A stretch of DNA of 64,000 bases from an uncultured virus (IMG/VR IMGVR_UViG_3300025759_000060). Its lineage: Duplodnaviria; Heunggongvirae; Uroviricota; Caudoviricetes. The stretch lies in the IMG/VR virus record IMGVR_UViG_3300025759_000060, one strand, 5' to 3'. How positions within the stretch are numbered: position 1 is the first letter of the stretch; the number at the start of each line of letters is the position of its first letter. The notes beneath the pieces were generated by a model. The model worked only from the letters and a program-made list of their open reading frames with translations. It was not told the DNA's origin and did no database searches. Of the stretch, positions 30,770 through 51,847 are shown piece by piece. The position numbers and the translations under genes are program-made.

Positions 30770-31427
30770 TTGCAAATGCCTTATCTAGTTCAATGTTCTG
30801 GTAGACCGCTCTGTGAGTCTTCAATAGTTTTATAAATATATTGGCTGTATCCTTAACGTCCTGCAATGCATCGTGGGCATTTTCTTTAGACAATCCCATA
30901 CGTTCTCGCAGAGTATCCATACTGATTGATCGTATGCTGGGATCTCCTTCAGTCCACATATGCATATTGTCCATGACATCACATTTATGGATCTTGCTAA
31001 AGATCTTTTGTTGATTTCTACCTTCGTCAAATGGACCATACTCTTGGCATAATCTATTGATAATAATCATATCAAACCCAATAATATTAAAGCCTACTGG
31101 AATAGGATTAAAGAAGGGGTCTTTTTTCCAATTATACTTGTCTACAAATGAGCAGAACTTTTTCCACACTGATTTTAATGTGGGAGCTTTAGCTAAATCT
31201 TTCCTATTCTTCCCCGTGACTTTTAGCGCTCCGTCCTCAATTGGATCTAATCCAGCGGCGATTGCGGCTTCATCATTTAGAATAGGTCTAATTTCGCTGT
31301 TAAAAGTTCCTTTCATAGACAAGTTTCTTCCGTCTAATGCTAACGCAGCAATTTGAGTCGGTTGTGTCTTATGAGGATTGCGGCTTCCTGTTTCAAAATC
31401 AAATACAATATAGTCTCTATTCGCCAT
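30747..31427 (-). CDS. DEDDh 3'-5' exonuclease (DnaQ/epsilon-like)
   Basis: VFDFETG (ExoI), GFNIIGFD (ExoII), HDALQDV (ExoIII). Confidence 0.88.
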   Translation of the reverse strand: MANRDYIVFDFETGSRNPHKTQPTQIAALALDGRNLSMKGTFNSEIRPILNDEAAIAAGLDPIEDGALKVTGKNRKDLAKAPTLKSVWKKFCSFVDKYNWKKDPFFNPIPVGFNIIGFDMIIINRLCQEYGPFDEGRNQQKIFSKIHKCDVMDNMHMWTEGDPSIRSISMDTLRERMGLSKENAHDALQDVKDTANIFIKLLKTHRAVYQNIELDKAFANGNLYVK

Positions 31428-32985
31428 TTTTTATTTCCTTAATTTTCATGAGTTTATCTAGAAGGTTAATTCCTAGAACGTCAAATTTAACATGACCTAG
31501 TGCTTCTAGATCTGACATTTCTAATCCTGCTATCTTTTCTGTAGAACCTTTCTGTGCTACCATAGGGCATACATTTTTTAGTTTATCTTTAGATATTACA
31601 ACGCCAGCAGCATGTTTACCCTGTGTTTTAAATGTGCCTTCTATGTCAATTGCTTGTTGAAAATATCCTGCATAATCACCTTCAAGCTTTCCATCATCAG
31701 TGATGTGGCAAAAATCTCTTAGCTCATCTGCACGGTTTATTAGAGACCATCTAATAATTGATCTATCTTCATCGTCCATGTCTGCCAGTTGATCAGATAT
31801 ATCTGCTTCATTAGGCACACTCTTAGTTATAGCATTCATTTCACTAAAAGAACAAGCCTCGTTTATACGAAGTACTTCTTTAATTGCACTACGCCCTTGT
31901 AGTCTACCAAATGTAATCATCTGACTCACATGTTCATTACCATAAGTATCTTTTAAATAATCTATAACGTCATCTCTACGTTTGCCCGGAACGTCCATGT
32001 CGATATCAGGTAAAGACACATGACCGCCTGTGTTTCTACCAGCATTATAGAACCTCTCAAAAATTAGATCATGTTCTACTGGATCAATTTTAGTGATGCC
32101 AATTAGATAGGATATTAAACATCCAGCAGCAGATCCACGCCCCGGTCCAGCTAAACATCCCATATCTTTTTCTACGTGTTGAATAATATCTTGCACAATA
32201 AGAAAATATCCAAATAGATCAGCATCCTTTATAACTTGTAGCTCTTTCCTAAATCTGTCGCCATAGATTTGCTGTAGTCCTTCATCATCCCCAACCTTGT
32301 CTTTTAGAAAGTTTCTATATCCTTCACGCGCCATGTCAGTTAGATATTCTTCTTGCGACAATCCTCTTGGACATACAAACTTTGGAAGCATAGGAGGATT
32401 TAATATTTCATAATCTTCACACGACTCGTATATGTATTGCAGTTCTTTAGTTGCCTTACCCTTTGTTATACATTTGTTATCATTAGTAAAGTATTCTAAT
32501 ATCTCTGGCTCTAATTCATTTTTTCTAATCTTGGTTTGTATTTTAGGCAGCGTAGTCTTTAGGGCAGAGCATAGTAGCACCCTGTGCAGCACTGCTTGTT
32601 CTTTTTTAGCATAATAAGATGGCTTGATATTATCTTTAGACTTTGGTAATGCCACAAGATTATTTCTGCTTATAATATCTTTAGCAATATCTGTTGGCAT
32701 ATTTCCATCTGTATTAGTCATTGATACCATCTGTATAAGATCGTGCCAGCCATCTTTGTTTTTAGCGTACACTGTGGTGTTGTCAAATGAACAGCCAATG
32801 ATTGGTTTGATGCCAACCTTCTTGCAGGCTTGATGGAAAGATACTGCGCCTGATATAGATTTATAATCTGTAATACCACAGGCTGGATAGTCATTGTCCG
32901 CACAAATCTTTGCAAGTTCGTGCGGCTTAGAGAATCCTTTTAGTAAACTATAATGCGTAAAATTCTTCAATGGAAACCAGTTCAA
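31417..32985 (-). CDS. dnaE: DNA polymerase III alpha, N-terminal half (reduced PHP + palm)
   Basis: THYSLL, GPGRGSAAG, FERF, PDIDMD, HAAGVVIS, KFDVLG; TTG start after GAGGAGG. Confidence 0.92.
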   Translation of the reverse strand: MNWFPLKNFTHYSLLKGFSKPHELAKICADNDYPACGITDYKSISGAVSFHQACKKVGIKPIIGCSFDNTTVYAKNKDGWHDLIQMVSMTNTDGNMPTDIAKDIISRNNLVALPKSKDNIKPSYYAKKEQAVLHRVLLCSALKTTLPKIQTKIRKNELEPEILEYFTNDNKCITKGKATKELQYIYESCEDYEILNPPMLPKFVCPRGLSQEEYLTDMAREGYRNFLKDKVGDDEGLQQIYGDRFRKELQVIKDADLFGYFLIVQDIIQHVEKDMGCLAGPGRGSAAGCLISYLIGITKIDPVEHDLIFERFYNAGRNTGGHVSLPDIDMDVPGKRRDDVIDYLKDTYGNEHVSQMITFGRLQGRSAIKEVLRINEACSFSEMNAITKSVPNEADISDQLADMDDEDRSIIRWSLINRADELRDFCHITDDGKLEGDYAGYFQQAIDIEGTFKTQGKHAAGVVISKDKLKNVCPMVAQKGSTEKIAGLEMSDLEALGHVKFDVLGINLLDKLMKIKEIKNGE

Positions 32986-33008: not shown

Positions 33009-33123
33009 GCCAGATAACACTGTGAATCTAGAATGAACTAGATGATGGTTTGAATCTGGCTTTGTATGGTGACGGATGATATCTTGAATCTAGAATTAAC
33101 TAGATAATAACCTGAATCCGTCA
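33009..33123. ncRNA. Tandem pair of symmetric double-pocket hairpin units (copies 2-3)
   Basis: 33009-33060 gccaga-TAACACTG-TGAA-tctag-aatgaa-ctaga-TGATGGTT-TGAA-tctggc; 33070-33123 tgacgga-TGATATCT-TGAA-tctag-aattaa-ctaga-TAATAACC-TGAA-tccgtca. Confidence 0.7.
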
Positions 33124-36580: not shown

Positions 36581-36581
36581 G

Positions 36582-38308: not shown

Positions 38309-39746
38309 TTGCTAATTTCTTCATAGAGTCATTATTAATTAATCCCGTGTCGCCAATTGGCTGATTCTTTAATTCATTTCTTGTTTGAAGTTCTATAAGT
38401 TTTGCGTGTGCGCCTTGCATTTGCATATTTATATAATCTCCATCGTCCATTCCAGCGCCATGTCTAGAAACAATCGGCACTAGTTTTCTATTGCCAGCAT
38501 TTGGTCCATCTTCTGCAAGCTCTTCTGTAGACTTAGCTTTAAATATTGTAAAAGACGTACACAACCATATCAATCGGTCTGACCCACTCACAGCGTCAGT
38601 ACTTTCTTTGGTGATACCATCTCTATTTAATTGCACGAAAGATAAACATGGCATGTCTAGCTTAACACATAAATTATGAAGTGAAGTTATTTGAAAACCT
38701 AGAGCCTGATATTCCTGTATATTGTTTGTAATAGAATTAGATGACATCAGCTTTAGATAATCATAGATAATTAAGCAGTCATTTGTCTTCCCATTTTCAT
38801 CTGTCTTCACTTCTTGTACAATCCACCGCTTGATCACATTAAGTATCTGTTCAAACGGCTTTCCTGCGACCGTGGCGTAACTGTATGGTATGTTAGATAA
38901 ATGATCAACAGCTTTTTGTACATTATCCATCTTCAATGGATCTTCTGCAAATTTACCAGTAGCAACTTCATTAATAGGAACCTTGCTAATATTAGCTATA
39001 AGTCTATTTAGATGGTCCTCTTTTGACATTTCTGTATCTAATACTAGGACGGGGACTCCGGTGGAGGATACATTAAGGGCAACATTATCAGCGAATACTG
39101 ACTTACCAACTTTTGGTCTTGCAGATATAAGATCAACGCATTTTCGTCTAAGACCACCGCCAATGGCTTCGTCGTACCTAGCGAACCCCGTGGGTATACC
39201 AATGATATCGCACTGATTTTCTTCGAGAAATTTGACATAATCTTCTACTCCCTCGCCAATCTTTTCTGGATGTTCTCCACCATCATCCTCGCGTAAAAAA
39301 TCTGTAACAGGATCTTCTAGCTTTTGTATAATTTCATTTATTGTTTCTGACCCAGTGACATCATCCATATCTTTGTTTACTTTACTTGTAAGTTTTTTAA
39401 TCTTACGAGCAAACTCAAACTTTTTCATTTGAGCTGCAAACTTTATGATATTATTTTTGTCTACTGGAAAATCAAACAGCGACTTTATATACTTAAGTTC
39501 TTGCTTAGTATTTATAGTCTCAGAAAATTTTAATTGTTCTGCGGCAGAAAGAAGTGAAGCAATATCTACGGACTGATCGTTATTAATAATATGCTTTACA
39601 CACTTGTATATAATTTGATTATTGTGATTGCCAAACGTGTCATCATTTACAAAATCTGATACAGTTATGTAGCCATCAATACCATACTGGATTAAACCAG
39701 CTAGCACTGCCCGTTCTGCACCGACATCTAATAGTTTATCTTGCAT
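38274..39746 (-). CDS. dnaB: Replicative DNA helicase
   Basis: GIPTGF, ARPKVGKS, TEMS, IYDYLKL, QLNR, SRHG. Confidence 0.92.
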   Translation of the reverse strand: MQDKLLDVGAERAVLAGLIQYGIDGYITVSDFVNDDTFGNHNNQIIYKCVKHIINNDQSVDIASLLSAAEQLKFSETINTKQELKYIKSLFDFPVDKNNIIKFAAQMKKFEFARKIKKLTSKVNKDMDDVTGSETINEIIQKLEDPVTDFLREDDGGEHPEKIGEGVEDYVKFLEENQCDIIGIPTGFARYDEAIGGGLRRKCVDLISARPKVGKSVFADNVALNVSSTGVPVLVLDTEMSKEDHLNRLIANISKVPINEVATGKFAEDPLKMDNVQKAVDHLSNIPYSYATVAGKPFEQILNVIKRWIVQEVKTDENGKTNDCLIIYDYLKLMSSNSITNNIQEYQALGFQITSLHNLCVKLDMPCLSFVQLNRDGITKESTDAVSGSDRLIWLCTSFTIFKAKSTEELAEDGPNAGNRKLVPIVSRHGAGMDDGDYINMQMQGAHAKLIELQTRNELKNQPIGDTGLINNDSMKKLANELATDQEKTE

Positions 39747-40141
39747 TATCTACCTGTACACCTATCACACCTATAATATTCCCCATATACAATATTAGCA
39801 TTTACTTGGTACTTTTTACCACAAGCATTGCATGTTACGTGTTTCTTTTTTGGTGGTGGTCTATTTCTGGGAGTTCTATGCACATTTGGAGTCTCTACTT
39901 CTTTGTGTTCTCCAGTGTCTGTCCAAGTATTTTCCCTTGCTTTTACTGGCTCCCTACGACGATTTGATCCCAAAGTAGACTTTTTAACTACTCTAAAATC
40001 ATCTGTAATGTCGTTTGTTTCTTCTAGTTCTGATTGTATGTGTGGAGGGTGCGTAGAAAATGCTTCTTTGCTATTTAAAGCTTTGATTAAAGCCTCTTTT
40101 TGTTCCACACTCAATGTCTTAACAAACTCATCCATACTCAT
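39746..40141 (-). CDS. Hypothetical protein with C-terminal Zn ribbon
   Basis: CNAC..CDRC. Confidence 0.55.
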   Translation of the reverse strand: MSMDEFVKTLSVEQKEALIKALNSKEAFSTHPPHIQSELEETNDITDDFRVVKKSTLGSNRRREPVKARENTWTDTGEHKEVETPNVHRTPRNRPPPKKKHVTCNACGKKYQVNANIVYGEYYRCDRCTGR

Positions 40142-40623
40142 AATCTTTTACCTTTCTCTAGTAATATATCTGCTTTACGTTTCAATTCATATATTTTACC
40201 GTCAAGTGCCTGTATCCTTGACTCTGCAATCTCACGATAGTGATCTACTGTTGCTGCGTATTCATCGTTTACAATTATAAGTGGTCTACGTTCCTCATAT
40301 TTAGTATACTTACTAAACTGATCGTGGTTTTTTGCAACCATTTTATTTAGCTTGTCGTTACACCAATTTAGAGCAATCTTCTGCATATTTAATTCATCTT
40401 GTAGATGTGTGGAGTAGCTATATAGTTGATACGACCAATCAAATAGTTCTGCTTGGGTAAGAGAACTGATGGTTTCCCTATCAGCATTAGCACATCTATG
40501 CCAATCATCTCTGAACTTCTTATTAAACCTAGCATGACTAGCGTTTAAAAAGTCGTCAACCATAGCTTTCAAGTCAGCCAACTGCTCACTCGCCGTTTTC
40601 AATTTGTTCTCTCCACTGCTCAT
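40138..40623 (-). CDS. Helical hypothetical protein (possible recombination mediator)
   Basis: Coiled-coil-like ORF near recA; function inferred from position. Confidence 0.4.
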   Translation of the reverse strand: MSSGENKLKTASEQLADLKAMVDDFLNASHARFNKKFRDDWHRCANADRETISSLTQAELFDWSYQLYSYSTHLQDELNMQKIALNWCNDKLNKMVAKNHDQFSKYTKYEERRPLIIVNDEYAATVDHYREIAESRIQALDGKIYELKRKADILLEKGKRL

Positions 40624-41011
40624 CTGTATCAGAATACTTCAATACTATTATATCAATTCTATTTAGTTTGCACCAATCTATTTTATCTTCATCCTTAGCT
40701 TTTGCAATAGCAAAATCGGCTTTGTTTTTATGAAAGAACGGTGTGTACTTATAATGTTGTTGACCATGAACTTCTATTGCTAGCATGATTTGTGGTATGT
40801 AAAAATCTAAATATAATACACCTTTCCTGTGGGACTCAGTGCTTCCCGGTAGTTTAACTTCTTCTAATATTCTGTAACTATGGTAGATAGTCTTAAGGAG
40901 TTTTCTTGCGCGAATGTGGAACTTTGACCGTTTGCGATTGTCGTTTGCATCTACATTGTAGCTTGTTAAATTCCAAGCGTACTCTTTGCCATTTATACCT
41001 GTAACCTTCAT
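40586..41011 (-). CDS. DUF559/Vsr-like endonuclease
   Basis: LYLDFYIP..AIEVHGQQH..DEDK. Confidence 0.7.
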   Translation of the reverse strand: MKVTGINGKEYAWNLTSYNVDANDNRKRSKFHIRARKLLKTIYHSYRILEEVKLPGSTESHRKGVLYLDFYIPQIMLAIEVHGQQHYKYTPFFHKNKADFAIAKAKDEDKIDWCKLNRIDIIVLKYSDTDEQWREQIENGE

Positions 41012-41074
41012 TTAAAACCTCTGTAATTATTTTAGATAGTAATATGCCTAAGCATATACTTATAATATTCTTTA

Positions 41075-42187
41075 TCAAAATAGCTCCTTTATCTTGTCAT
41101 ATACGAAAGAAGCAATTTGTGGATTCTCATTTAAAAATTCTGATAAGTTGTTTGATCCTTGAAATTTAAAAAATCTTTCTATGTCTTCTTCTTTATCAGA
41201 AATATTATTATCACTTAGTATCTTTTGTATTACCGGATCTTCTAAGTTATCGACCGCGCACTGTATTGTATACCAAGCACCAGCAGATTTAATTAATCTA
41301 AACTCACATGCTATCTGTACAACCTCTTGTACTTCGTCTAGCCCAATGCCATATCTAATCCAACTTTCCGCTGTGCTATTTGGAGTACCGCCAGCGCAAG
41401 ATGTTTTGACGTTCCAGTTTGCTATCTGACCAACGTGAGGCCCAGTATCTTTTGGAATTTGCCATCGACCACGATGGGTGATTACCATGTTTGTACCAGC
41501 TTGATATTGCAACATATTTCCACAGTCTGCCATCTTTGCTGGTGCGTATGGAGATCCACCAGTGTTTGCGATATTGTGAGTAACAGCAATTAGTATTGTT
41601 TTATTCTTCATTAGAGAGCCACTAATACGTTTGAAAAACATAGATAGTAATCGAGGCAATGCGTTACGCACACCTGTACGAACTTCACCGTCTAGCTCTA
41701 CTGATGGAACCATATTTGATAATGAATCTGCAATGATCAAACAACCCGGATCATTATTAATGTAATACTCTGTAATGTTTAGAAACTCTTCTGCTGATAA
41801 AATCTTATCGTCTGTAGACTGTACAATAAGAATTCCTTCAGGATCTAAACCTTTAATCCCATCAAAATTTTGCTTAGACAACCTACCTTCTGTGTTAAGA
41901 TAAATGACACGTTTTCCTTGAGCTTGACACTTTGCAGCAAAGTGCAATGCTGTCGTGGTTTTACCAGACTTAGGATCACCTGTCATGACCACTACAGATC
42001 CTTCTCTAAGTCCACCTCCCAACGCGATGTCTAACGCTGGAGATACACCAATTACTTCCAATTGGTTAATATTTTCTAAGACCTCAGTACCAGTGCTAAC
42101 AACATCTCCATATTTACTAACCACGGAATTGCTTACTACATCAGTGTCAAACTTATTAGATACTTTCTTCTTCTTAACTTTACTCAT
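41075..42187 (-). CDS. recA: RecA/UvsX recombinase
   Basis: LDIALGGG, GDPKSGKTT, NTEG, IADSL, AGAWY. Confidence 0.9.
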   Translation of the reverse strand: MSKVKKKKVSNKFDTDVVSNSVVSKYGDVVSTGTEVLENINQLEVIGVSPALDIALGGGLREGSVVVMTGDPKSGKTTTALHFAAKCQAQGKRVIYLNTEGRLSKQNFDGIKGLDPEGILIVQSTDDKILSAEEFLNITEYYINNDPGCLIIADSLSNMVPSVELDGEVRTGVRNALPRLLSMFFKRISGSLMKNKTILIAVTHNIANTGGSPYAPAKMADCGNMLQYQAGTNMVITHRGRWQIPKDTGPHVGQIANWNVKTSCAGGTPNSTAESWIRYGIGLDEVQEVVQIACEFRLIKSAGAWYTIQCAVDNLEDPVIQKILSDNNISDKEEDIERFFKFQGSNNLSEFLNENPQIASFVYDKIKELF

Positions 42188-42714
42188 AGATCCCTCAATT
42201 TGTTTATCATTGTTTTATTTTTAGAATACGTCTGCGTTCTTCTTACTTTAACTTCTTGTTTGTCTTCAACTGTGTTTTGTTCAGGTTTAGTTTTTGCTTT
42301 TTTGGCAATCTTTTCTGCAACTTTGACTTCATTATTATAGCTCTTTATTGCTTCAAGTGCAACCTGATTATACTTCCAACCTCTAGGGCCGTAAGCTTTA
42401 AGTCCAATGTGATATATGTTTTTAAAATGACTTGACTTTATAGCTTCTATAATTATATGCTCTGGAAACTTTTTCTTTAATCCCGTAGCCGCTTTCATGT
42501 TTCTGATAAACATGTCATGATACTTGTCGCCCACTGTCCAAAATTTATAAGATGGTCTGTCCATCTTAAATGATTCTGTCCATCTAAGAATAAGAAATTC
42601 AGCGACGTAAGACTCAAAGTTACAATATTCACCCGTATGAATATGTTTATACTTATAAGTTTCAGACCACTGCTTTTGATAATTCTTGCTAAATGGCTTC
42701 GCCTTGTCTGACAT
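42184..42714 (-). CDS. Hypothetical protein
   Basis: Coupled ORF in operon. Confidence 0.5.
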   Translation of the reverse strand: MSDKAKPFSKNYQKQWSETYKYKHIHTGEYCNFESYVAEFLILRWTESFKMDRPSYKFWTVGDKYHDMFIRNMKAATGLKKKFPEHIIIEAIKSSHFKNIYHIGLKAYGPRGWKYNQVALEAIKSYNNEVKVAEKIAKKAKTKPEQNTVEDKQEVKVRRTQTYSKNKTMINKLRDL

Positions 42715-43126
42715 TGTATACAAAAGCCTCTTCAAAACACTCTTCAAAATTGTCTGTATGTTGAGCCTCTTCTATCAAGGCTGGGACGATCCACATTGTT
42801 TTTTCAACTTTATTATCTTTTAAAAACCCTATCGTATAGCAGTCTATCGACTTGCCTTGCAATTCTGCTTTTATAGATCTTACTAGATATACTGCTTCTG
42901 CATCTTCATTTTCCATTTTAATACAATGAGATCTATAACGCAAGCCAATACCTTTTATATATACATTATTATCATCACAATATTTTTGGAATGTCGTCCA
43001 TTTATCGTAATCATCTAAGTATATTTCTTTATCGTCAGAAGTTTGTATGTAAATCCATATTTTTCTTCTGTTGTCAGTGTTGGCATACGCTCTACGCCAT
43101 CCATCTTCGCCTATGATATATTTCAT
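42689..43126 (-). CDS. Hypothetical protein
   Basis: 145-aa coupled ORF. Confidence 0.5.
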   Translation of the reverse strand: MKYIIGEDGWRRAYANTDNRRKIWIYIQTSDDKEIYLDDYDKWTTFQKYCDDNNVYIKGIGLRYRSHCIKMENEDAEAVYLVRSIKAELQGKSIDCYTIGFLKDNKVEKTMWIVPALIEEAQHTDNFEECFEEAFVYNVRQGEAI

Positions 43127-43425
43127 TATTCAGCTTTAATTTTAGTTACGCAAGATTGATTTTTTCTAGGCCCAACTTTACGCTTTTCATCTGCAAGCGT
43201 AGATGCAGTTTCAGTCATAATGGTTGATCCACGATGATGGTGAATGTGTTCACCCGCTGTAACTGTAGTTTGTTTGGCCTTGTGAGTAATATTTTTTTTA
43301 ATATATGTTTCTATAGATTTTATTGACCTATCTAGATCTACAGCAATTTCTGCTATCTCTTTATCTCTGTAATTATTGTCAATATAAAATGCTTCAACCT
43401 TACTGATTGGTCCTTTTTTAGCCAT
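43126..43425 (-). CDS. HTH-like hypothetical protein
   Basis: EIAEIAVDLDRSIKSIETY; AGGAG RBS. Confidence 0.5.
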   Translation of the reverse strand: MAKKGPISKVEAFYIDNNYRDKEIAEIAVDLDRSIKSIETYIKKNITHKAKQTTVTAGEHIHHHRGSTIMTETASTLADEKRKVGPRKNQSCVTKIKAE

Positions 43426-43756
43426 TTATAAAGCTCCTTTCTGCTCGTCGCATAAACAACGTGTTTTTAGTTTGCAAATACTTAACATAGTAGTCAAATG
43501 TTTGCTTTGAAGTTGATTTTAGTTCTTTACGAATTTGATTAGCCCTGTGACTGTCTGTGCCTCTGGGGTCAAACAGAGTGCCATTTGATGTAAGTACAAA
43601 GAATTTCTTTTGTACCCTTTCTCCTATATCAATTGCTTTATATTCTGCATATACAGTATCACTATCGTCTGATACACTTTGACCAAAGGCGTTATAAGAT
43701 TTTGTTTCTGTGTCTTTTTTAGCATCTTTTGATGTATAGTTTTCAACATATTTCAT
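43418..43756 (-). CDS. Hypothetical protein
   Basis: 112-aa coupled ORF. Confidence 0.5.
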   Translation of the reverse strand: MKYVENYTSKDAKKDTETKSYNAFGQSVSDDSDTVYAEYKAIDIGERVQKKFFVLTSNGTLFDPRGTDSHRANQIRKELKSTSKQTFDYYVKYLQTKNTLFMRRAERSFING

Positions 43757-44089
43757 TTATTCACCTTTAATAATATATTTCTTTTTCTGTTCTGGAGTCA
43801 TTTTATTTATTTTGATACGCTGTTCTTTTTTCTCTTGCGCTACTTTAAGATGTTGACTTTTAGATTCTATCTCTGACTTTTGATAGCTACCCATTCTAGA
43901 CCAATTCTTATCAGCCTGACCGCCAATGGTGCTGGAGTCAGTCATAAAAGAACCTAGCCCTCCATATATTACTCGTTCTAGAGTATTTTTACCACAAGAA
44001 GGGCAATTTTCTAGGGCATCGTCGTGAATAGACTGTCTAACATCTTTCAATGTTTCGCCACAATTTGTACATCCATAATCATATAACAT
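43757..44089 (-). CDS. FmdB-family zinc-ribbon protein
   Basis: MLYDYGCTNCG..CPSCG..LER. Confidence 0.8.
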   Translation of the reverse strand: MLYDYGCTNCGETLKDVRQSIHDDALENCPSCGKNTLERVIYGGLGSFMTDSSTIGGQADKNWSRMGSYQKSEIESKSQHLKVAQEKKEQRIKINKMTPEQKKKYIIKGE

Positions 44090-44108
44090 TTCAAAATCCT
44101 TGTATTGT

Positions 44109-44301
44109 GCCAGATAACAGACTGAATCTAGAGTTAACTAGAAGATGTCTTGAATCTGGCTTGTTTTGTCCCCCGGCTAGGGTAAAGATATGAATCTAAA
44201 ATTAATTAGATAACTTCCTGAACCCTAACCGGGACTAGGTTGGGTCTTAGAGTGATGAGCTAAATCTAGAATAAACTAAATAACACCATGAACTCTAAGA
44301 C
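44109..44301. ncRNA. Array of three symmetric double-pocket hairpin units (copies 4-6)
   Basis: Units at 44109-44160, 44172-44233 and 44244-44301 share the architecture but have different, self-complementary outer stems. Confidence 0.7.
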
Positions 44302-44972
44302 TCTAATGCGTATAAAACTGCTCCTATAATTCCGTTCCTCTGTATATCATGATACTCTAATTGAGAGATTCCGACCCCCGTAACATTAGATAATTTTTGC
44401 ATACATGTTTCTAATCCAGTGTGCTTATATATATCTGTTTGTTTATTATCACCATTTACAAGTACTTTAGAGTGTTTTCCCATTCGCGTAACAAACATCT
44501 TAATTTGCTCAAGTGTACAGTTTTGAGCTTCATCTAATATCATATACGAGTCGTGGAACGTCGATCCTCTCATAGTTTCTAGGGGTTCAAATCTAATCCT
44601 TCTTTGATTATAATAATAACCAAATTTATCTCTACCTAAAAAATATTTTAAATTTTCCTCCATAGGTTGTAGATATGGTTTTATTTTTTCGTTCAGTTCT
44701 CCCGGCAGAGAACCAAGATCTTTACCCGCACACACCAAAGGACGAGTTACAATTATCATGTCTATTTCGTCTTTTAAAATCTTTTGTGCTGCTATTCCAG
44801 CTGCGATAAATGATTTACCACTACCAGAAGGTCCAGTACAGAAAACTATATCGTTTTCTATAATTGATCTTATATAATATTTTTGATTCTCAGTCTTAGC
44901 CTCCAGTACTTTTGGTTTATGTGCTTTTTTTTCTTGACGCTTTTTTCGATTGTTATGTGCCTGTGCTGCCAA
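44295..44972 (-). CDS. phoH: PhoH-like ATPase
   Basis: GPSGSGKS, TRP, LGSLPG, MRGSTF, ILDEAQN, GDNKQTD. Confidence 0.93.
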   Translation of the reverse strand: MAAQAHNNRKKRQEKKAHKPKVLEAKTENQKYYIRSIIENDIVFCTGPSGSGKSFIAAGIAAQKILKDEIDMIIVTRPLVCAGKDLGSLPGELNEKIKPYLQPMEENLKYFLGRDKFGYYYNQRRIRFEPLETMRGSTFHDSYMILDEAQNCTLEQIKMFVTRMGKHSKVLVNGDNKQTDIYKHTGLETCMQKLSNVTGVGISQLEYHDIQRNGIIGAVLYALES

Positions 44973-45378
44973 AACCGTTACTCCCTCGTTGCGAGGTTTC
45001 TAATTCTTCTGCTTCAATTAGAGAAACTAAAGGAACCTCTTGGAATATAATCTGTGCGATTCTATCCCCACGATTTATTTCTACATCTTCGTCAGAAGTA
45101 TTGTATAAACAAACCATGACCTCTCCCCTATAGCCAGAATCCACGACTCCAGCTAAAACATCTAATCCCCTTTTTACAGACAGTCCAGAACGAGGCCAAA
45201 TTAATCCGGCTAATCCTTCTGGCATATCAAAGGAAACTCCTGTTTTTATAGTTGTTCGTTGTCTGCCAACTACGACTGTGTTTTCAGACGCATACAAGTC
45301 ATAGCCAGCATCACCGCGATGAGCTTTAGTCGGTGTCTCTGCTTCTTCGTTCAATAATTTAACATACACAAAAACCAT
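44953..45378 (-). CDS. dut: dUTPase (trimeric)
   Basis: AGYDL, PRSG, GVVDSGYRGE, RIAQ, RGSNGFGSTG. Confidence 0.95.
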   Translation of the reverse strand: MVFVYVKLLNEEAETPTKAHRGDAGYDLYASENTVVVGRQRTTIKTGVSFDMPEGLAGLIWPRSGLSVKRGLDVLAGVVDSGYRGEVMVCLYNTSDEDVEINRGDRIAQIIFQEVPLVSLIEAEELETSQRGSNGFGSTGT

Positions 45379-45387
45379 AGTTAACTC

Positions 45388-47604
45388 CTAGATTATATCA
45401 CACTTCCCGCCAGCACAAGCTACCTCTTGTACTGGATTTACATTATTCTGTTCTTCAATTACGTTGGTGTAATGTACTTCCTTGTACTCACGGTTGATAT
45501 CTAACCATTCATGCCAATTGTAAACATCCTTCATACAATATGTTAATTGTTTTAAATCTCCATTCATGTATTTATCAGCAAATTTTTGACATCTATCTTT
45601 ATAAGATTTTTTTTCTGTACCTTTAGCCTTTTGACCAACACCTAATAAACTATCACACGCTGCCCAAAGATTATCTTCATATAGTTGTAGTCCAATTTCT
45701 ATCAGACCGCTAACAAACATTGCAGCATCTCCATAGTGTTGTATCTGTTCACTGGGTAAATACACCGTTGTGAACGGAGCTTGAGCATAATCTTTATCCC
45801 CAGCTATGGGAAGAAGAGAAACGCCACAAAAATATTTACGATATTTATATATAAAATCTGTAACAGAATCCCATTCATCTGGCTTTACATTAATAGTATT
45901 AGAAACATTATGCGTCAACCAAGGTTGAGTACATTGCTTTGGGTTTGTACCGCTTACAACCCAGTTTCTTTGCGTACTTTTTACATACTCAAGAAGGTCG
46001 ATTGCACCAACTTGATTTTTGATCTTTGCGCCGTCTGGAACTTCTACGCAAAATGCTACTACGTCATCTGAGTCATTATTTGACCACACAGACTCTTCAC
46101 AAGCTCTAGGATTAATTGTTTTAAAATACTGGTATATTGGCTCCAGCTTATTAGCTTGGACTCTACGGATGTATCTCTTGGCGTGGTGGGGGTGAATACC
46201 AGACGATGTTCCAAGAATGCAACTTGATGTTCCTTCTGGTTTAACACAGGTTGTACGAGCCGCTTGATTAACACCAATTAGTGCAGCTAATTTCTTGTTG
46301 GTTTCTTTTACTATTTCTGCGCCTCTTTTTTGCACTTCTGGGTCAAGACAAATTTCATGTTGCTCCATAACACCCGTCATTGAAACACCCAGTAAAGCTT
46401 CGCGGCTAATAATTCTTTCTGAGACCTCTCCAAGATATGGAAAACTAGCAAATCCAGCCTGTAGTGTGCCAATAATTGCAGCGGAAGCACACGCTTCATA
46501 AAACTCTTTCTTTGTAGTTACCTTAGCGCAGTTAATTGTAGATAGATTACACGCCTGCCATCCAGTTTTACCTGTCTGCTCATCGACGGGCCACATGCCA
46601 ATTTCCACACATGGATTGACAATCAATTCTGTAGAATCAGACCATACAAATCCGGGTTCTCCAAACTCTTTAACAGATTGCATGAGTTCTGTAAACTGTT
46701 CTTTTGTTGTTTCGTTGCGAAGCAATAAGGCAGAATTGTTTGATCGTCCTCTCTGTGGATTATCAATAAACCATGATCCAGTTTTAGCTTTTGCCATTTC
46801 TTCGTCGTCGGCAGAAAAGACGCAGATAGTAGCGCTACGACGAACACCGCCACTGATTACAGCATCAGCGCCATACATAACAATGTCATACGCTTCAATT
46901 GGCTTGAGTTTCTTCTGACCATTTTTAATAGCATTGTCAAGTGTTTTCTTGATGCTAGTCAAAGCATTCTTTAATGGTTCTGGACCCGGAGCTTTACCTC
47001 CACTTGATTTTAGATAAGCTCCTGCTGGACGTATAGCAGAATAATCAAATACAACTGTTTTACCATTATATTCAGGAAAAAGATCATCTCCCTTGAAATA
47101 ACTAGAAATAAGAACACCTACAGCGTCTGACCAACCTTCTATAGAATCTTCAATAACAAATTTCTTTTGACCGTTTTTTCCTCTGATTAAGTTAGGTAGT
47201 TTAGCAATGTGGTGTTTCTGCACAGAGAATCCAGTTCCACAACCACAAAGTAATAGATACATGCATTCTTGGAAAAATCTTGTTCTGTCAATATATGAAG
47301 CAATACAGTTATATATTCTAGCATTATGTTTAAACACTGGAGATCCACCAAATTGTAAAGCTCTTTGTGAACCAAGAATCTTTTTTTTCTTCATGTCATC
47401 GTATGCTTGATCAATATACTTTGCGATCTCTGCCACTGGAGGAGGAGTCGTCTCCTTGTGTATACTATCATCCACATACTTGTCAATCATCATTTGTCTT
47501 ACTCTATCAACTGATTCACCCCACGTTTCTCTTCTTTTCTTTTGTGGACACCACCTTGCATATTTAGATACGAACGTATAACTCATTAATGATTTGAGCG
47601 ACAT
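45388..47604 (-). CDS. nrdJ: Class II (B12-dependent) ribonucleotide reductase
   Basis: YNC, GGVRRSA, NPCVE, CNL, VKPEGT, C-terminal CAGGKC; no adjacent small subunit. Confidence 0.85.
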   Translation of the reverse strand: MSLKSLMSYTFVSKYARWCPQKKRRETWGESVDRVRQMMIDKYVDDSIHKETTPPPVAEIAKYIDQAYDDMKKKKILGSQRALQFGGSPVFKHNARIYNCIASYIDRTRFFQECMYLLLCGCGTGFSVQKHHIAKLPNLIRGKNGQKKFVIEDSIEGWSDAVGVLISSYFKGDDLFPEYNGKTVVFDYSAIRPAGAYLKSSGGKAPGPEPLKNALTSIKKTLDNAIKNGQKKLKPIEAYDIVMYGADAVISGGVRRSATICVFSADDEEMAKAKTGSWFIDNPQRGRSNNSALLLRNETTKEQFTELMQSVKEFGEPGFVWSDSTELIVNPCVEIGMWPVDEQTGKTGWQACNLSTINCAKVTTKKEFYEACASAAIIGTLQAGFASFPYLGEVSERIISREALLGVSMTGVMEQHEICLDPEVQKRGAEIVKETNKKLAALIGVNQAARTTCVKPEGTSSCILGTSSGIHPHHAKRYIRRVQANKLEPIYQYFKTINPRACEESVWSNNDSDDVVAFCVEVPDGAKIKNQVGAIDLLEYVKSTQRNWVVSGTNPKQCTQPWLTHNVSNTINVKPDEWDSVTDFIYKYRKYFCGVSLLPIAGDKDYAQAPFTTVYLPSEQIQHYGDAAMFVSGLIEIGLQLYEDNLWAACDSLLGVGQKAKGTEKKSYKDRCQKFADKYMNGDLKQLTYCMKDVYNWHEWLDINREYKEVHYTNVIEEQNNVNPVQEVACAGGKCDII

Positions 47605-47624
47605 GTACTGACTCCGTGTTTTGT

Positions 47625-48251
47625 TTAAGTATCAAATAATTTATCTAAGAATCTATTTATAATCCATCTAATGATAACAGGTAAGATAACATAAAGAAAA
47701 ATCCAAGTCAATAAAACTGACCCATATTTTTTCTCAGCGTCTTCTACAACGTTGTCGTATACAAAATTATAACATTGATCCTTTAGGGTATATCTATCAA
47801 AATAATCAGCATTATCAAAAGTAACACCTTTACCCATACACATTGTAGCCCATTGCTCTGAATATTGCAAGCATTTTTTGGCAATATCTTTGTAGGATTT
47901 TTTAGAATATTTTGCTTCTATTTCAGCATAAATATCAGCATTATTGAAATTGCAAAACTTGACGGTATCAGAAGAATCACCATAGCCAAAACTAAAGTCT
48001 GGAAAATTTCTTAACTTTATAGATCCACCTTCTTCTCCAAAAATTATTTGTTCAATGTAAGCATAGAACGTAATAAGTTTTGTTATCTCTGCTCTAGGTT
48101 GATTTTCGCCAAACTTTATAATTGTTACATTGTCACCATGACTTATGTTTGCAACGCAAGGGCTTTCTGCTTTAATCTTAAATCCTTTAACTTCTATTCC
48201 ATTTCCATTAAAAATATTCCTAAGACTTATATTTATTTCTTTTGGTGACAT
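47625..48251 (-). CDS. Hypothetical protein with C-terminal TM helix
   Basis: VLLTWIFLYVILPVII. Confidence 0.5.
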   Translation of the reverse strand: MSPKEINISLRNIFNGNGIEVKGFKIKAESPCVANISHGDNVTIIKFGENQPRAEITKLITFYAYIEQIIFGEEGGSIKLRNFPDFSFGYGDSSDTVKFCNFNNADIYAEIEAKYSKKSYKDIAKKCLQYSEQWATMCMGKGVTFDNADYFDRYTLKDQCYNFVYDNVVEDAEKKYGSVLLTWIFLYVILPVIIRWIINRFLDKLFDT

Positions 48252-48253
48252 AT

Positions 48254-48721
48254 TTATCCCCCATGTATTAATACCCACGCTACAGCCATAAAATACTCAT
48301 TTAGTTCTGCTTTCTCAGATTCTTTTAAAGAATGATTGTCATCTCCCATAATTTCTTTTAACAGTTTTACTATCTCTTCTGCTAGCCCGTCATATTTATC
48401 AACTAATGTGTCTTTAAAAAATATTTTTCCAGCAAGAGTATAAACATCATTTACTTGTTGCGAAGTGGCATTATAGTCTAAAACTCTTTTTGCAAACTCA
48501 TAGTTAAAAATAGCCAACTTAGCTTTGTCGCTTGGGTCTGTAACAAGTTCAGAAAATATTTCAACCCTATTTATAACATCTTCGTGAGGTTTATCTATGC
48601 TCAAAATTTTTACTGGTGGCGGTTCTGGATTTGGTTTAGGAGTTTGATCAAGCAAATCTAATAAGCCTCCACCGAAAAAACTATATAGCAACAAACCTAC
48701 TGCTAGTATATTTTTATACAT
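48254..48721 (-). CDS. Membrane-anchored hypothetical protein with Pro-rich linker
   Basis: N-terminal hydrophobic stretch, PKPNPEPPP. Confidence 0.5.
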   Translation of the reverse strand: MYKNILAVGLLLYSFFGGGLLDLLDQTPKPNPEPPPVKILSIDKPHEDVINRVEIFSELVTDPSDKAKLAIFNYEFAKRVLDYNATSQQVNDVYTLAGKIFFKDTLVDKYDGLAEEIVKLLKEIMGDDNHSLKESEKAELNEYFMAVAWVLIHGG

Positions 48722-48722
48722 T

Positions 48723-49010
48723 TTATTTCTCCGCATTAAATAGTGGAAAAACTTCATCTAGCTTTTCCACTGCTTGGTCTAATCCTTCTTCTGTACATTT
48801 CTCTTTTAGGGAGTACCATAGGTCTACGATTTCCAAAAAAGGCTTATCAGCAACCTCGTCTTCCTCGATGATCACCTTGTTCTTTTTTAGAAAATTAAAG
48901 CTAAACATACTTTTAACCTTTCCGAATACATAAGACCAACTAATATTTGAAAATAGTAACACAGACGCTATTGCAATCGCTGCTACTCTTAAAATCATTT
49001 CTGTTTCCAT
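48723..49010 (-). CDS. Small membrane protein
   Basis: N-terminal TM helix; GGAG RBS. Confidence 0.5.
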   Translation of the reverse strand: METEMILRVAAIAIASVLLFSNISWSYVFGKVKSMFSFNFLKKNKVIIEEDEVADKPFLEIVDLWYSLKEKCTEEGLDQAVEKLDEVFPLFNAEK

Positions 49011-49023
49011 AATGTCTCCAATC

Positions 49024-49407
49024 CTAATGTTTATAAATTAATAATCCTTCTTTTAGTATTTTAGCCGTTCCCTCTCCGTGGTATGGGCATTTTGTTTTGT
49101 GACCGTCCCCTTGTTTTATCCAGCCTGATCCACCACAAGGGCATTTATCTGGATCTGGGTTTGGCCCAATAATGTCTGGAGTCGGATTATCTTCTTTAAA
49201 TATTTCTGAACCCGCTTTGTCGAAAGCAACTTTAACGTCTGCCTTCCATGTTTCTATGTAATCTTCATACATGTTTGTAATATCTTCAGTGCTACATCCA
49301 CAATCTACAGGTCCACCGTCAATAACAGACTGCCTGTTATCCATTATCATAACCGTTGCAGCTATACTGATTACAGAGATAAAAACAAGCTCAAGATGTT
49401 TTTTCAT
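49024..49407 (-). CDS. Membrane-anchored protein with Cys motif
   Basis: TM helix + CPCGGSG..GDGH..CPYH. Confidence 0.55.
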   Translation of the reverse strand: MKKHLELVFISVISIAATVMIMDNRQSVIDGGPVDCGCSTEDITNMYEDYIETWKADVKVAFDKAGSEIFKEDNPTPDIIGPNPDPDKCPCGGSGWIKQGDGHKTKCPYHGEGTAKILKEGLLIYKH

Positions 49408-49625
49408 GGATCGCCTCCGTCCACGGCATTATAATAAGCAATATCATCAAATCGCCCTGTCAATCCAGCTTGAATGGCTGTATAACTAGGACTAGTATCT
49501 AGAGTTGCATCAATTGTATTAAACTCGCCAGTTGCTAGGCAGGTTACAACAACAGTGCCATTTTTTGTTGCTTCTACAGAAGTGTTTGGATTTGTTACTA
49601 CGTCAGTTGTTGAGACTACGCCCAT
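49404..49625 (-). CDS. Small hypothetical protein
   Basis: 73 aa, AGGAG RBS. Confidence 0.5.
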   Translation of the reverse strand: MGVVSTTDVVTNPNTSVEATKNGTVVVTCLATGEFNTIDATLDTSPSYTAIQAGLTGRFDDIAYYNAVDGGDP

Positions 49626-49636
49626 TGTAAATTCTC

Positions 49637-49744
49637 CTATGGTTTAGTATAAATTAATTTTGAACCTTTGTATATTTTTTCTATAATTTTACCTTCTACG
49701 TATGCAGAAGGAATGTTGTTTGAACCCTTTTTTACGTTAGCCAC
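49637..49744 (-). CDS. Small protein (35 aa), not in the ORF track
   Basis: GTG start after AGGAG; MANVKKGSNNIPSAYVEGKIIEKIYKGSKLIYTKP* fills the gap. Confidence 0.55.
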   Translation of the reverse strand: MANVKKGSNNIPSAYVEGKIIEKIYKGSKLIYTKP

Positions 49745-49753
49745 AGAACACTC

Positions 49754-50976: not shown

Positions 50977-50979
50977 TTT

Positions 50980-51201: not shown

Positions 51202-51203
51202 TT

Positions 51204-51794: not shown

Positions 51795-51812
51795 AGTTTT
51801 GCCCCTCGTATG

Positions 51813-51847
51813 AAAATAAAAGACACGCCCCCCTTGGAGGGCGTATC
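51813..51847 (-). terminator. Intrinsic terminator
   Basis: Minus strand GATACGCCCTCC-AA-GGGGGGCGTGTC followed by TTTTATTTT. Confidence 0.75.

What the first reader, a model, noticed from the sequence alone, without database searches (positions are those of the whole stretch)
44109..44301. Family of two-fold-symmetric hairpin units with two variable pockets: candidate dual-guide or decoy RNA system (3-unit array)
Seen: three tandem units here and six in the window share one + strand layout: outer stem, TRAY-NNNN-TGAA, 5-bp inner stem with 6-nt loop (tctag-aattaa-ctaga), TRAY-NNNN-TGAA, complementary outer stem. Outer stems mostly differ yet stay paired (gccaga/tctggc twice, cccggctaggg/ccctaaccggg, gtcttagag/ctctaagac, tgacgga/tccgtca, tagaga/tctcta). 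Inner stems show compensatory changes (tctag/ctaga, cctag/ctagg, tctaa/ttaga). Pocket length is always 8+4 nt and all 12 eight-mers differ: TAACAGAC/AGATGTCT, TAAAGATA/TAACTTCC, TGATGAGC/TAACACCA, TAACACTG/TGATGGTT, TGATATCT/TAATAACC, TAACATGT/TTATGATG. Known: two short variable segments in a symmetric conserved frame is the design of TIGR tigRNAs, box C/D sRNAs and IS110 bridge-RNA loops, all bound by dimeric Nop-type proteins. Inference: this is a phage-encoded programmable guide family, or a set of decoy/processing RNAs for a dimeric protein. Only about 4-5 nt per pocket are truly variable, shorter than TIGR's 9-nt spacers. No Nop/Tas/IS110 gene is recognisable in this window, so it may be a distinct system.
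Basis: partly seen in the sequence, partly recalled or inferred. Interest (0 to 1): 0.92.

Follow-up and report, generated by a model that had tools for sequence, protein, structure and literature searches.

The report
Phage hairpins naming forbidden 8-mers
A marine phage carries small conserved hairpins whose two variable loops together spell an 8-letter DNA word that is missing from that phage's own genome but common in its relatives, which is what a compact programmable targeting system would look like.

Summary
The six units are real: 6 matches against 0.03 expected. They belong to a family of 100 distinct units in uncultured marine phage contigs.

The layout needs correcting. Each 12-nt "pocket" reads T-R-A / XX / NNN / T-G-A-A. 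The XX of the two pockets pair with each other in 98 and 100 of 100 units. Only 3 nt per pocket are free.

The free triplets turn over faster than synonymous sites. They are 47.5% G+C, against 20% at four-fold sites.

The decisive result concerns the 8-mer revcomp(N'N'N')+XX+NNN. This assumes each pocket reads a different DNA strand with a 2-bp shared core. That 8-mer is absent from the unit's own record in 30 of 30 units tested. For the first 21 units 57 copies were expected and none were seen (product of P(zero) 10^-17.6).

Seven other ways of joining the same parts give 40-73 copies. Single-mismatch neighbours and other phages' genomes show normal counts.

Best reading: guide-like specificity modules with the geometry of an IS110 bridge-RNA loop or a stem-loop tigRNA. 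They would direct an activity that the phage genome must avoid.

No effector was found: no Nop, IS110, L7Ae or RNase III domain. The guide strand and its expression are also unshown.

The parts
44109..44160 (.). Unit U1. Outer stem gccaga/tctggc. Pocket 1 at 44115-44126 (TAA|CA|GAC|TGAA). Inner hairpin at 44127-44142. Pocket 2 at 44143-44154 (AGA|TG|TCT|TGAA). Predicted target word AGACAGAC.
   Evidence: R2, 62.9 bits. The target word has 0 copies in the window and in G001.
44172..44233 (.). Unit U2. The 11-bp outer stem cccggctaggg/ccctaaccggg holds a conserved C.A on + (G.U on the minus strand). Pockets TAA|AG|ATA|TGAA and TAA|CT|TCC|TGAA. Predicted target word GGAAGATA.
   Evidence: 64.4 bits. 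The target word has 0 matches in the window against 2.58 expected, and 0 in G001 against 5.83.
44244..44301 (.). Unit U3. Outer stem gtcttagag/ctctaagac, whose 3' arm overlaps the PhoH stop codon (44295-44297). Pockets TGA|TG|AGC|TAAA and TAA|CA|CCA|TGAA. Predicted target word TGGTGAGC.
   Evidence: 59.9 bits. The target word has 0 copies.
33009..33060 (.). Unit U4. Outer stem gccaga/tctggc. It lies directly upstream of the ribosome-binding site of the PolIII-alpha N-terminal gene. Pockets TAA|CA|CTG|TGAA and TGA|TG|GTT|TGAA. Predicted target word AACCACTG.
   Evidence: 73.6 bits. The target word has 0 copies. A minus-strand TTCACA-16-TATAAT promoter-like site overlaps one pocket.
33070..33123 (.). 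Unit U5. Outer stem tgacgga/tccgtca. Pockets TGA|TA|TCT|TGAA and TAA|TA|ACC|TGAA. Predicted target word GGTTATCT.
   Evidence: 74.3 bits. The target word has 0 matches in the window against 2.25 expected. The one-letter variant carried by record G019 is absent from G019 and from G001.
20027..20078 (.). Unit U6. Outer stem tagaga/tctcta. It lies between the bidirectional terminator (about 19990-20028) and the stop codon of the minus-strand gene 20076-20408. Pockets TAA|CA|TGT|TGAA and TTA|TG|ATG|TGAA. Predicted target word CATCATGT.
   Evidence: 67.0 bits. The target word has 0 matches in the window against 2.52 expected.
44295..44972 (-). PhoH-like ATPase gene, upstream of the three-unit array in mRNA sense. 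Context only, not shown to belong to the system.
   Evidence: Pfam PF02562, E 1.1e-63. In unit-less relatives it directly abuts the Zn-ribbon gene.
43757..44089 (-). FmdB-type zinc-ribbon protein gene (110 aa), downstream of the array in mRNA sense. Context only.
   Evidence: Pfam Zn_ribbon_8 and NCBIfam TIGR02605. Present in unit-less relatives at 64-69% identity.
31417..32985 (-). PolIII-alpha N-terminal gene. A unit lies next to it in all six unit-bearing records examined. Context only.

Best explanation
Each unit is a compact specificity module of the split-guide kind.

**Structure.** A variable outer stem and a conserved 5-bp inner hairpin hold open an internal loop. Each strand of that loop carries a 5-nt segment: 2 'core' letters plus 3 free letters. 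The two core dinucleotides are complementary to each other.

**Proposed target.** If each segment pairs with a different strand of one DNA duplex, with the 2-bp core shared, the unit names one 8-bp site (3+2+3). This is the geometry of the binding loop of an IS110 bridge RNA, and more loosely of a stem-loop tigRNA.

**Proposed action.** The module probably acts as RNA with a two-fold symmetric (dimeric) protein. It would direct an activity harmful to any DNA carrying the site. Cleavage is the simplest reading; tight binding or recombination are alternatives. The phage stays immune because its own genome lacks its own seven or more sites. Host DNA and rival phages carry them.

**Evolution.** The three free letters per arm turn over quickly, re-aiming the module.

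**What is shown:** the architecture, the covariation, the fast turnover, the non-neutral base composition, and the genome-specific absence of the 8-mers.

**What is inferred:** that the element works as RNA, which strand acts, the existence and nature of the effector, and the consequence for the target.
For: **1. Structure.** Three helices are supported by covariation in 100 units. Cells paired: 97.0% against 74.3% in shuffles. The 2-bp core helix is 99.5% paired with all four Watson-Crick pair types.

**2. Self-avoidance.** The 8-mer revcomp(N'N'N')+XX+NNN has 0 copies in its own genome for 21 of 21 units in 6 records. The expected total was 57.0 and the product of P(zero) is 10^-17.6.
- In G001 alone (119.9 kb), all 7 of its units give 0 against 24.4 expected.
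- Three window checks with the DNA search give 0 against 2.25-2.58 expected.

**3. Specificity of the geometry.** Seven other ways of joining the same parts give totals of 40-73, with only 2-9 of 20 at zero.

**4. All eight positions count.**
- 7-mers: observed/expected 0.68 and 0.88.
- 6-mers and 5-mers: 0.95-1.06.
- 4-mer: 0.93.
- Each single-mismatch class: 0.91-1.15.

**5. Genome specificity.** The same words are common in other genomes. The window phage's 7 words occur 13 times in G002 and 24-36 times in G006-G010. G004's 5 words occur 15 times in the window phage.

**6. Replication.** Three held-out units and six units from five further records also show 0 copies in their own record. The total is 30 of 30 units tested.

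**7. The free triplets are not neutral.**
- G+C is 47.5% (285 of 600) against 19.8% at 2,529 four-fold sites.
- They differ at 20 of 30 sites between the window and G004, while four-fold sites in the flanking genes differ at 0.03-0.23.
- They differ at about 0.67 per site already at 1-3% flank divergence.
- 55 of 64 possible triplets are seen, with no relation between the two pockets.

**8. [quoted passage not shown] The 5' side pairs with the bottom strand and the 3' side with the top strand (PMC11208160, passages).
Against: - **No effector.** No Nop, IS110 (DEDD/Transposase_20), L7Ae or RNase III domain appears in six-frame searches of 5 unit-bearing records per family. ORF scans of the window and G001 find none either.
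- **No co-occurring gene.** No ORF is present in at least 2 unit-bearing records and absent from all 5 unit-less relatives.
- **Adjacent genes are not specific.** Genes next to the units also occur in unit-less relatives.
- **Short guides.** Five-nucleotide guide segments are far shorter than in any characterised guide system.
- **Expression and strand unshown.**
  - The only RNA-library evidence is an unstranded contig from a relative.
  - The minus strand has the IS110 polarity but no known loop motif.
- **Incomplete records.** All records except the window phage are 10-49% complete. About 24 kb of the window phage itself was not available, so unsampled copies of the words cannot be excluded.
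- **Scattered layout.** The units are dispersed in groups of 1-3 rather than in an array beside an effector gene.
Confidence: 0.68

Rival explanations
1. The same guide geometry serves site-specific recombination or insertion, as in IS110 bridge recombination, rather than destruction. The words would be landing sites in host or rival DNA. The phage would lack them to avoid rearranging itself.
For: The loop topology and shared core match the IS110 target-binding loop. The self-avoidance is equally expected under this reading. Relative to unit-less relatives, the arrays look like insertions at gene junctions.
Against: There is no donor-binding loop and no recombinase domain. Seven or more different targets per genome have no obvious use for integration. 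Orthologous units stay in place across diverged phages.
Confidence: 0.12
2. The units are cis-acting structured RNA in polycistronic mRNA. They would be processing or stability hairpins, or a site for a dimeric RNA-binding protein, for example an RNase III-type site or a double K-turn-like motif. The triplets would be unconstrained bulge nucleotides.
For: The units are intergenic, lie just upstream of ribosome-binding sites or after the last gene of an operon, and are co-transcribed in orientation. Hairpin covariation is strong. The helix length is about 20-24 bp with two-fold symmetry. On the + strand U-R-A faces U-G-A-A, which allows tandem G.A pairs (the K-turn and box C/D consensus is recalled, not tested).
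Against: This reading predicts nothing about 8-mers elsewhere in the genome, yet 30 of 30 units show own-record absence. The triplets are 47.5% G+C against 19.8% at neutral sites, and they evolve faster than four-fold sites. Close relatives do without the units altogether. No phage RNase III or L7Ae was found. There is no Rfam match.
Confidence: 0.1
3. The units are a selfish or domesticated small palindromic repeat (REP- or MITE-like), or a DNA-level hairpin site for replication, priming or recombination. It would spread by duplication and be kept for its own propagation.
For: - There are several copies per genome, tandem sets, and insertion at gene junctions in one subclade only.
- U1 and U4 share stem and linker.
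- The right half of G004's U1 resembles U6, which suggests conversion between units.
- Wobble counts do not clearly favour one RNA strand: 29 A.C against about 10 G.T cells.
Against: No transposase or HUH gene was seen. The outer stems differ between loci. Orthologous units are stable across phages whose PolIII protein is only 44-60% identical. This reading explains neither the 8-mer avoidance nor the base composition of the triplets.
Confidence: 0.05
4. The units are decoys or sponges for a host-encoded dual-guide system (TIGR-Tas- or IS110-like). They would mimic its guide scaffold to disarm it.
For: The scaffold resembles stem-loop tigRNAs: variable palindromic stems, a 5-bp stem between spacers, and a 'UG' box D (bioRxiv 10.64898/2026.09.09.750476, sections 5 and 11 and passages). 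No phage effector was found.
Against: A sponge needs no particular triplets and no self-avoidance. No complete unit was found in one genome each of 185,579 prokaryote species: 13 pattern hits, of which only 1 partial model match.
Confidence: 0.03

Closest known systems
IS110-family bridge RNA, target-binding loop
   Same: Both are an internal loop of a hairpin whose 5' and 3' strands each carry a guide segment. The two segments pair with opposite strands of one duplex. A 2-nt core is included in both pairings, so the core-binding letters of the two segments are complementary (PMC11208160, passages). Read on the window's minus strand, the polarity is the same: arm then core on both sides, with the 5' side pairing bottom-left and the 3' side pairing top-right.
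   Different: - The guides here are 5+5 nt (an 8-bp site), against 8-9 plus 4-7 nt in IS110.
- The core is variable here (14 combinations) rather than mostly CT.
- There is no donor-binding loop and no 5' stem-loop.
- No DEDD/Tnp recombinase is present.
- There are many dispersed units per genome instead of one RNA per element.
Stem-loop TIGR arrays (tigRNAs of TIGR-Tas systems)
   Same: Both are carried by phages. Both are tandem hairpin units with stems that vary between units but stay palindromic, two short variable segments, and a conserved inner linker that can be a 5-bp stem. Each segment is proposed to read a different DNA strand (PMC12045711 section 9; bioRxiv 10.64898/2026.09.09.750476 sections 5 and 11 and Methods passages).
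   Different: - TIGR spacers are 8-12 nt and show no covariation or overlap. Here they are 5 nt with a 2-bp complementary core.
- No Nop-domain Tas gene is present.
- The units come in sets of 1-3 scattered over more than 100 kb rather than in arrays beside tas.
- The TIGR-like strand is antisense to all neighbouring genes.
Archaeal and eukaryotic box C/D guide RNAs
   Same: On the + strand the order is outer stem, UGA-type box, short segment, UGA-type box, loop, then the same again. U-R-A faces U-G-A-A, so tandem G.A pairs could form next to both stems. The box C/D consensus is recalled, not tested.
   Different: There is no 10-12-nt guide. The bulge is 4 nt rather than 3. The stems are placed as the non-canonical helices, the reverse of the usual arrangement. 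No L7Ae or Nop protein is present. No RNA-methylation context is known.
Restriction-site avoidance by phages
   Same: In both, short words are completely missing from a phage genome but normal in relatives, with every position needed.
   Different: Here the avoided words are written in the phage's own hairpins and differ between close relatives. They are not set by a host enzyme.

Membership tests
TIGR-Tas (stem-loop array type) | [quoted passage not shown] | tested here: not met
   Only 5 nt lie between the conserved T-R-A and T-G-A-A, and 2 of them pair with the other pocket. The definition comes from PMC12045711 section 9.
TIGR-Tas (stem-loop array type) | Spacers A and B are independent, with no covariation or overlap | tested here: not met
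   The XX/X'X' positions are Watson-Crick paired in 98 of 100 and 100 of 100 units.
TIGR-Tas (stem-loop array type) | An adjacent Tas gene with a Nop domain | tested here: not met
   PF01798 gives 0 hits in 5 of 5 records in a six-frame search at E<=1. ORF scans find none. A very divergent Nop fold was not tested by structure.
TIGR-Tas (stem-loop array type) | Variable palindromic stems around each unit, units in tandem | tested here: met
   Arrays hold 2-3 units.
IS110 bridge RNA | An internal loop whose two strands pair with opposite DNA strands, with the core dinucleotide in both pairings | tested here: inconclusive
   The complementary 2-nt core is shown. Only this arrangement yields avoided 8-mers. 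Pairing to DNA is inferred from the avoidance and was not observed.
IS110 bridge RNA | A DEDD/Tnp recombinase encoded next to the RNA | tested here: not met
   PF01548 and PF02371 each give 0 hits in 5 of 5 records.
IS110 bridge RNA | A second (donor-binding) loop that recognises the element's own ends | tested here: not met
   The units have a single internal loop.
Box C/D RNA / K-turn | Tandem sheared G.A pairs next to a 3-nt bulge, bound by an L7Ae-family protein | tested here: inconclusive
   - G at pocket position 10 is 95-97% conserved.
- A at position 3 is 90-98% conserved.
- Position 2 is G in only 44-58% of units.
- The bulge is 4 nt.
- PF01248 gives 0 hits in 5 of 5 records.

Three-dimensional structure is not testable here.
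Rfam families | A match to a curated covariance model | tested here: not met
   There are 0 matches at gathering score in the window. The only other match is a RAGATH-13 chance-level hit, E 4.2.
REP/MITE-like mobile palindromes | Identical termini in the copies, a cognate transposase, and polymorphic presence at a locus | tested here: inconclusive
   The outer stems differ between loci. No transposase was seen. Presence or absence differs between subclades.
RNase III processing site (T7 type) | Cleavage by RNase III within an internal loop of a ~20-bp hairpin | not testable with these tools
   Only shape and position can be compared. There is no phage RNase III.

The most novel reading that the evidence does not exclude
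A phage-borne, re-aimable 'guided restriction' system. Dispersed 52-62-nt hairpin guides each name an 8-bp DNA site through two 5-nt arms that share a 2-bp core. They would work with an effector that belongs to none of the known guide-binding families (Nop, IS110, Cas, Argonaute). The system would be used to destroy or silence host and rival-phage DNA. The phage's own genome is kept free of its current sites, and specificity is re-drawn by turnover of three letters per arm.
Probability: 0.4. Interest if true: 0.95.

Novelty: new variant of a known kind. Interest (0 to 1): 0.88.

Why it matters
If the reading holds, this is the shortest natural split-guide module yet seen. It would link IS110 bridge RNAs, tigRNAs and box C/D RNAs to a form without any recognisable partner protein.

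It would show that a phage can write its own list of forbidden sequences into a few hairpins and re-aim them in three-letter steps.

The self-avoidance test used here needs only genomes. It gives a general way to find such systems and to read their targets. It also turns the question of what these hairpins do into a direct experiment: put the predicted 8-bp word on a plasmid and infect.

An 8-bp programmable recognition unit of about 55 nt would also interest tool builders.

Tried and rejected
- **Rfam.** No family at gathering score. Only a chance-level hit at E 4.2.
- **Phage database.** No DNA match in GenBank phages. The PolIII protein has at most 34.5% identity to any record there, so the host stays unknown.
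- **Intra-array pairing of pockets.** Same-genome complementarity is no better than cross-genome. The triplets of the two pockets are neither equal nor complementary beyond chance.
- **Promoter or terminator reading.** One strong minus-strand site overlaps U4, and weak + strand sites lie inside the units. None was found at the three-unit array and there were no terminator-like sites. This does not hold as a general explanation.
- **Neutral drift of the triplets.** Rejected on base composition and rate.
- **Gene co-occurrence.** No ORF tracks the units.
- **The 409-aa neighbour of the seventh unit.** It belongs to a family of 1,172 homologs. Copies 95-98% identical sit in records without units. 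It has no PDB sequence match. The two ORFs near U6 also have none.
- **Analogous repeats in unit-less relatives.** None were seen among 10-mers shared by at least 3 intergenic regions.
- **Bacterial and archaeal species genomes.** 13 pattern hits, none a complete unit.
- **RNA evidence.**
  - One run search and one read laying.
  - Only unstranded contigs were available.
  - A 2,972-nt contig from an RNA library of a ~93%-identical relative bridges all three units and the downstream genes.
  - It shows neither strand nor ends and may be DNA, so it gives no verdict on expression.
- **Earlier notes of this scan.** Nothing was held.
- **Not done.**
  - No structure prediction, fold search or complex prediction was run, because no candidate protein stood out.
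  - Two units of record G020 were not tested.
  - The last two scripts timed out. One search was repeated. One search was replaced by the searches.
  - The similarity between G016/G017 and G003/G004 was therefore not measured.

Full report
**1. Observation**

Shuffles give 0.03. The three-unit array at 44109-44301 fills the gap between the PhoH-like gene (44295-44972, minus strand) and a zinc-ribbon gene (43757-44089, minus strand). Two more units lie upstream of the PolIII-alpha N-terminal gene (33009-33123). One lies between a bidirectional terminator and the end of gene 20076-20408.

All genes from 20076 to the window's end are on the minus strand. In mRNA sense each pocket reads UUCA-NNN-XX-UYA.

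Each unit folds as a long hairpin on either strand, with z-scores from -4.2 to -6.7.

**2. The phage and the spread of the family**

The window is a ~160-kb uncultured marine phage. It encodes a split PolIII-alpha, DnaB, primase, RecA, PhoH, class II ribonucleotide reductase, many glycosyltransferases and two sigma-like factors. It has no close isolate in GenBank.

Record G001 overlaps the window over 47,461 nt with 11 mismatches. It carries a seventh unit.

Pattern scans and two covariance models gave these results:
- Units are present in G002-G006 and several small viral contigs.
- A capped metagenome scan returned 122 stretches. Pooled with the loci already held, and after filtering for paired stems, this gave 100 distinct units in about 25 locus groups.
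- Five relatives with 86-90% identical PolIII, 45-83% complete, have none.
- Fifty of 56 PolIII loci have none.
- Records G012-G015, one of them 99% complete, have none.
- One genome from each of 185,579 prokaryote species yielded no complete unit.

In unit-less relatives PhoH abuts the zinc-ribbon gene, and the U6 position holds only the terminator. The units are therefore additions at gene junctions in one subclade. Once present, they stay at orthologous places even in phages whose PolIII is only 44-60% identical.

**3. Corrected anatomy**

In the alignment of 100 units, 97.0% of cells are paired against 74.3% in shuffles, and 0 of 500 shuffles reach that value. The outer stem varies between loci with double changes at 6 of its 7 pairs.

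The new point is a 2-bp helix inside the "pockets". Position 4 of pocket 1 pairs with position 5 of pocket 2, and position 5 with position 4. These pairs are Watson-Crick in 98 of 100 and 100 of 100 units, across 14 dinucleotide combinations. Within locus groups they change in a compensatory way: for example AG/CT becomes GG/CC in the group of the seventh unit.

Each pocket is therefore T-R-A, then 2 core letters, then 3 free letters, then T-G-A-A. The first three pairs of both stems are also conserved (UGAA-Y-C-Y). The whole internal loop has a two-fold axis through the core helix.

**4. The free triplets**

They look random. Of 64 possible triplets, 55 occur among 200, and the two pockets show no relation to each other. 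But they are not neutral:
- They are 47.5% G+C. The 2,529 four-fold sites of window genes are 19.8% G+C.
- Between the window and G004 they differ at 20 of 30 sites (read). Four-fold sites differ at 0.03-0.11 in the genes flanking the three-unit array, at 0.04-0.23 around U4 and U5, and at 0.23 overall.
- Across all orthologous pairs, triplet difference is 0.04 at identical flanks and already 0.67 at 1-3% flank divergence. The short flanks are partly conserved coding sequence and understate divergence, so I claim only "several-fold faster than synonymous sites".

**5. The test that decides**

The shared complementary core recalled the IS110 bridge RNA, where both guide segments of a loop include the core dinucleotide (PMC11208160, passages). 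If each 5-nt segment pairs with a different strand of one duplex, a unit names the 8-bp word revcomp(N'N'N')+XX+NNN.

I counted these words on both strands of each unit's own record. The results:
- **Main count.** 0 copies for 21 of 21 units. Letter-permuted 8-mers average 0.5-6.6 copies each. The product of P(zero) is 10^-17.6. The summed expectation is 57.0.
- **G001 alone.** All 7 of its units give 0 against 24.4 expected.
- **Tool check.** Three words checked with the DNA search in the window give 0 against 2.25-2.58.
- **Other arrangements.** Seven other ways of joining the same parts give totals of 40-73.
- **Sub-words.** Only the full word is avoided. 7-mers stand at 0.68 and 0.88 of expectation, which is what removing the 8-mer alone predicts. 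6-mers and 5-mers are at 0.95-1.06, the 4-mer at 0.93.
- **Mismatches.** Every single-mismatch class stands at 0.91-1.15.
- **Other genomes.** The words are ordinary elsewhere. The window phage's seven occur 13 times in G002 and 24-36 times in G006-G010. G004's five occur 15 times in the window phage, although the two genomes are about 92% identical where aligned.
- **Replication.** Three held-out units found later by the second model also give 0. So do six units of five further records. One of these is a one-letter variant of U5 whose word is also missing from the near-identical G001.

In all, 30 of 30 units tested show no copy in their own record. Two units of G020 were not tested.

Absence on both strands points to double-stranded DNA, not RNA, as the thing avoided.

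**6. Mechanism proposed**

*Shown:* the hairpin scaffold, the core pairing, the fast and compositionally non-neutral triplets, and the genome-specific absence of the composite word.

*Inferred:* the unit is a guide. It most likely acts as RNA bound by a symmetric dimer. Its arms open a matching 8-bp site, with one arm pairing on each strand around the shared core. The outcome is harmful to the DNA that carries the site. The phage is immune because it has no such site.

This reading also accounts for the triplets. Only words absent from an AT-rich genome are allowed, and such words are G+C-richer. Re-aiming against hosts or rivals would drive fast turnover.

**7. Which strand?**

For the minus strand (mRNA sense):
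- It is co-oriented with all flanking genes in every context I could assess.
- It has the IS110 polarity: arm then core, with the 5' side pairing bottom-left and the 3' side top-right.
- Non-Watson-Crick cells in the stems are more often A.C on the + strand, which is G.U on the minus strand: 29 against about 10. Mutation bias could also produce this.

For the + strand:
- U-R-A faces U-G-A-A, so box C/D-like tandem G.A pairs could form.
- It has the 'UG' box D reported for stem-loop tigRNAs.

I lean slightly to the minus strand. This remains open.

**8. What is missing**

No effector was found. Nop, IS110, L7Ae and RNase III domains are absent from the records searched and from the ORF scans.

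No gene tracks the units. The 409-aa neighbour of the seventh unit also occurs, 95-98% identical, in records without units.

About 24 kb of this phage was not available to me. The effector may lie there, may be a protein shared with unit-less relatives, or may come from the host.

Expression is unshown. An RNA-library contig of a relative bridges the array, but it is unstranded and may be DNA.

**9. Comparison with known systems**

The closest match in topology is the IS110 target-binding loop. The closest in life-style and scaffold is the stem-loop TIGR array. I read PMC12045711 as passages, and bioRxiv 10.64898/2026.09.09.750476 as outline, sections 5 and 11, and passages.

The units fail defining tests for both families: spacer length, spacer independence, a Tas gene, a recombinase and a donor loop. 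I therefore do not file them as members of either.

In my four literature searches I found no description of this element. That is not proof that none exists. The supplements of the bioRxiv preprint and its TIGRSafari resource were not available, and they could list related arrays.

**10. Verdict**

The guide-like reading is strongly supported by genome-specific self-avoidance. The effector, the acting strand and the activity are unknown. I rate it a new variant of the split-guide kind, of high interest.

Noticed in passing
window 29192-32985 (minus strand): The PolIII-alpha gene is split into an N-terminal gene (PHP + NTPase, 31417-32985) and a finger-domain gene (29192-30775). An RNase T/epsilon-like exonuclease gene (30747-31427) lies between them.
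   Followed up: no
window 52623-53099 (minus strand); L115 12426-12914 (+): There are two small sigma-70/ECF-like factors in one phage. This suggests phage-specific promoter classes.
   Followed up: no
L115 (G001) about 1430-1480, 1717-1770, 1812-1860: A ~50-nt cassette (cgctgact..cacgatctt..tagata) is repeated three times in the early region. It ends in a ribosome-binding site on the minus strand. A perfect TTGACA-16-TAGAAT lies next to the third copy (read by eye).
   Followed up: no
window 33124-33176 and its orthologues (alignment A1, columns 330-400): The stretch between U5 and the PAP2 gene stop is G+C-rich. It is very variable, with indels, even between the window and G004. It may be another structured element.
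   Followed up: no
window 44099-44108, 33061-33069; many loci: A conserved linker, CTTGTATTGTG / CTTTGTATGGTG, precedes units at several unrelated loci. In mRNA sense it runs into the ribosome-binding site of the next gene.
   Followed up: partly
G004 unit orthologous to U1 (L050 1501-1562, minus strand) compared with window 20027-20078: The right half of G004's U1 (loop AATTAA, CTAGG, TTATGAT-) resembles U6 rather than the window's U1. This leaves a T.G in the inner stem and may reflect conversion between units.
   Followed up: partly
window 49754-50056 (minus strand): A 100-aa ORF carries a major-tropism-determinant N-terminal domain (Mtd_N, E 1.3e-13). No reverse transcriptase was seen in the ORFs scanned.
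   Followed up: no
window 1-19258 (+); G001 32795-52356: There are very large structural ORFs: 3025+ aa (the only Pfam hit is an FG-GAP repeat), 1511 and 1219 aa, and in G001 3690 and 2829 aa. All are without homologs in the five unit-less relatives.
   Followed up: no
window compared with G004, gene by gene: Four-fold-site divergence ranges from 0.00 to 0.53 between neighbouring genes of the same two phages. This is a strongly mosaic history. Two of the step changes coincide with unit arrays.
   Followed up: partly
window 21171-21935 and 40586-41011 (minus strand): Two paralogous homing-endonuclease-like ORFs match PHROG 559/9084. The longer one has a weak Cbp1-type HTH match. Both are shared with unit-less relatives.
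   Followed up: partly
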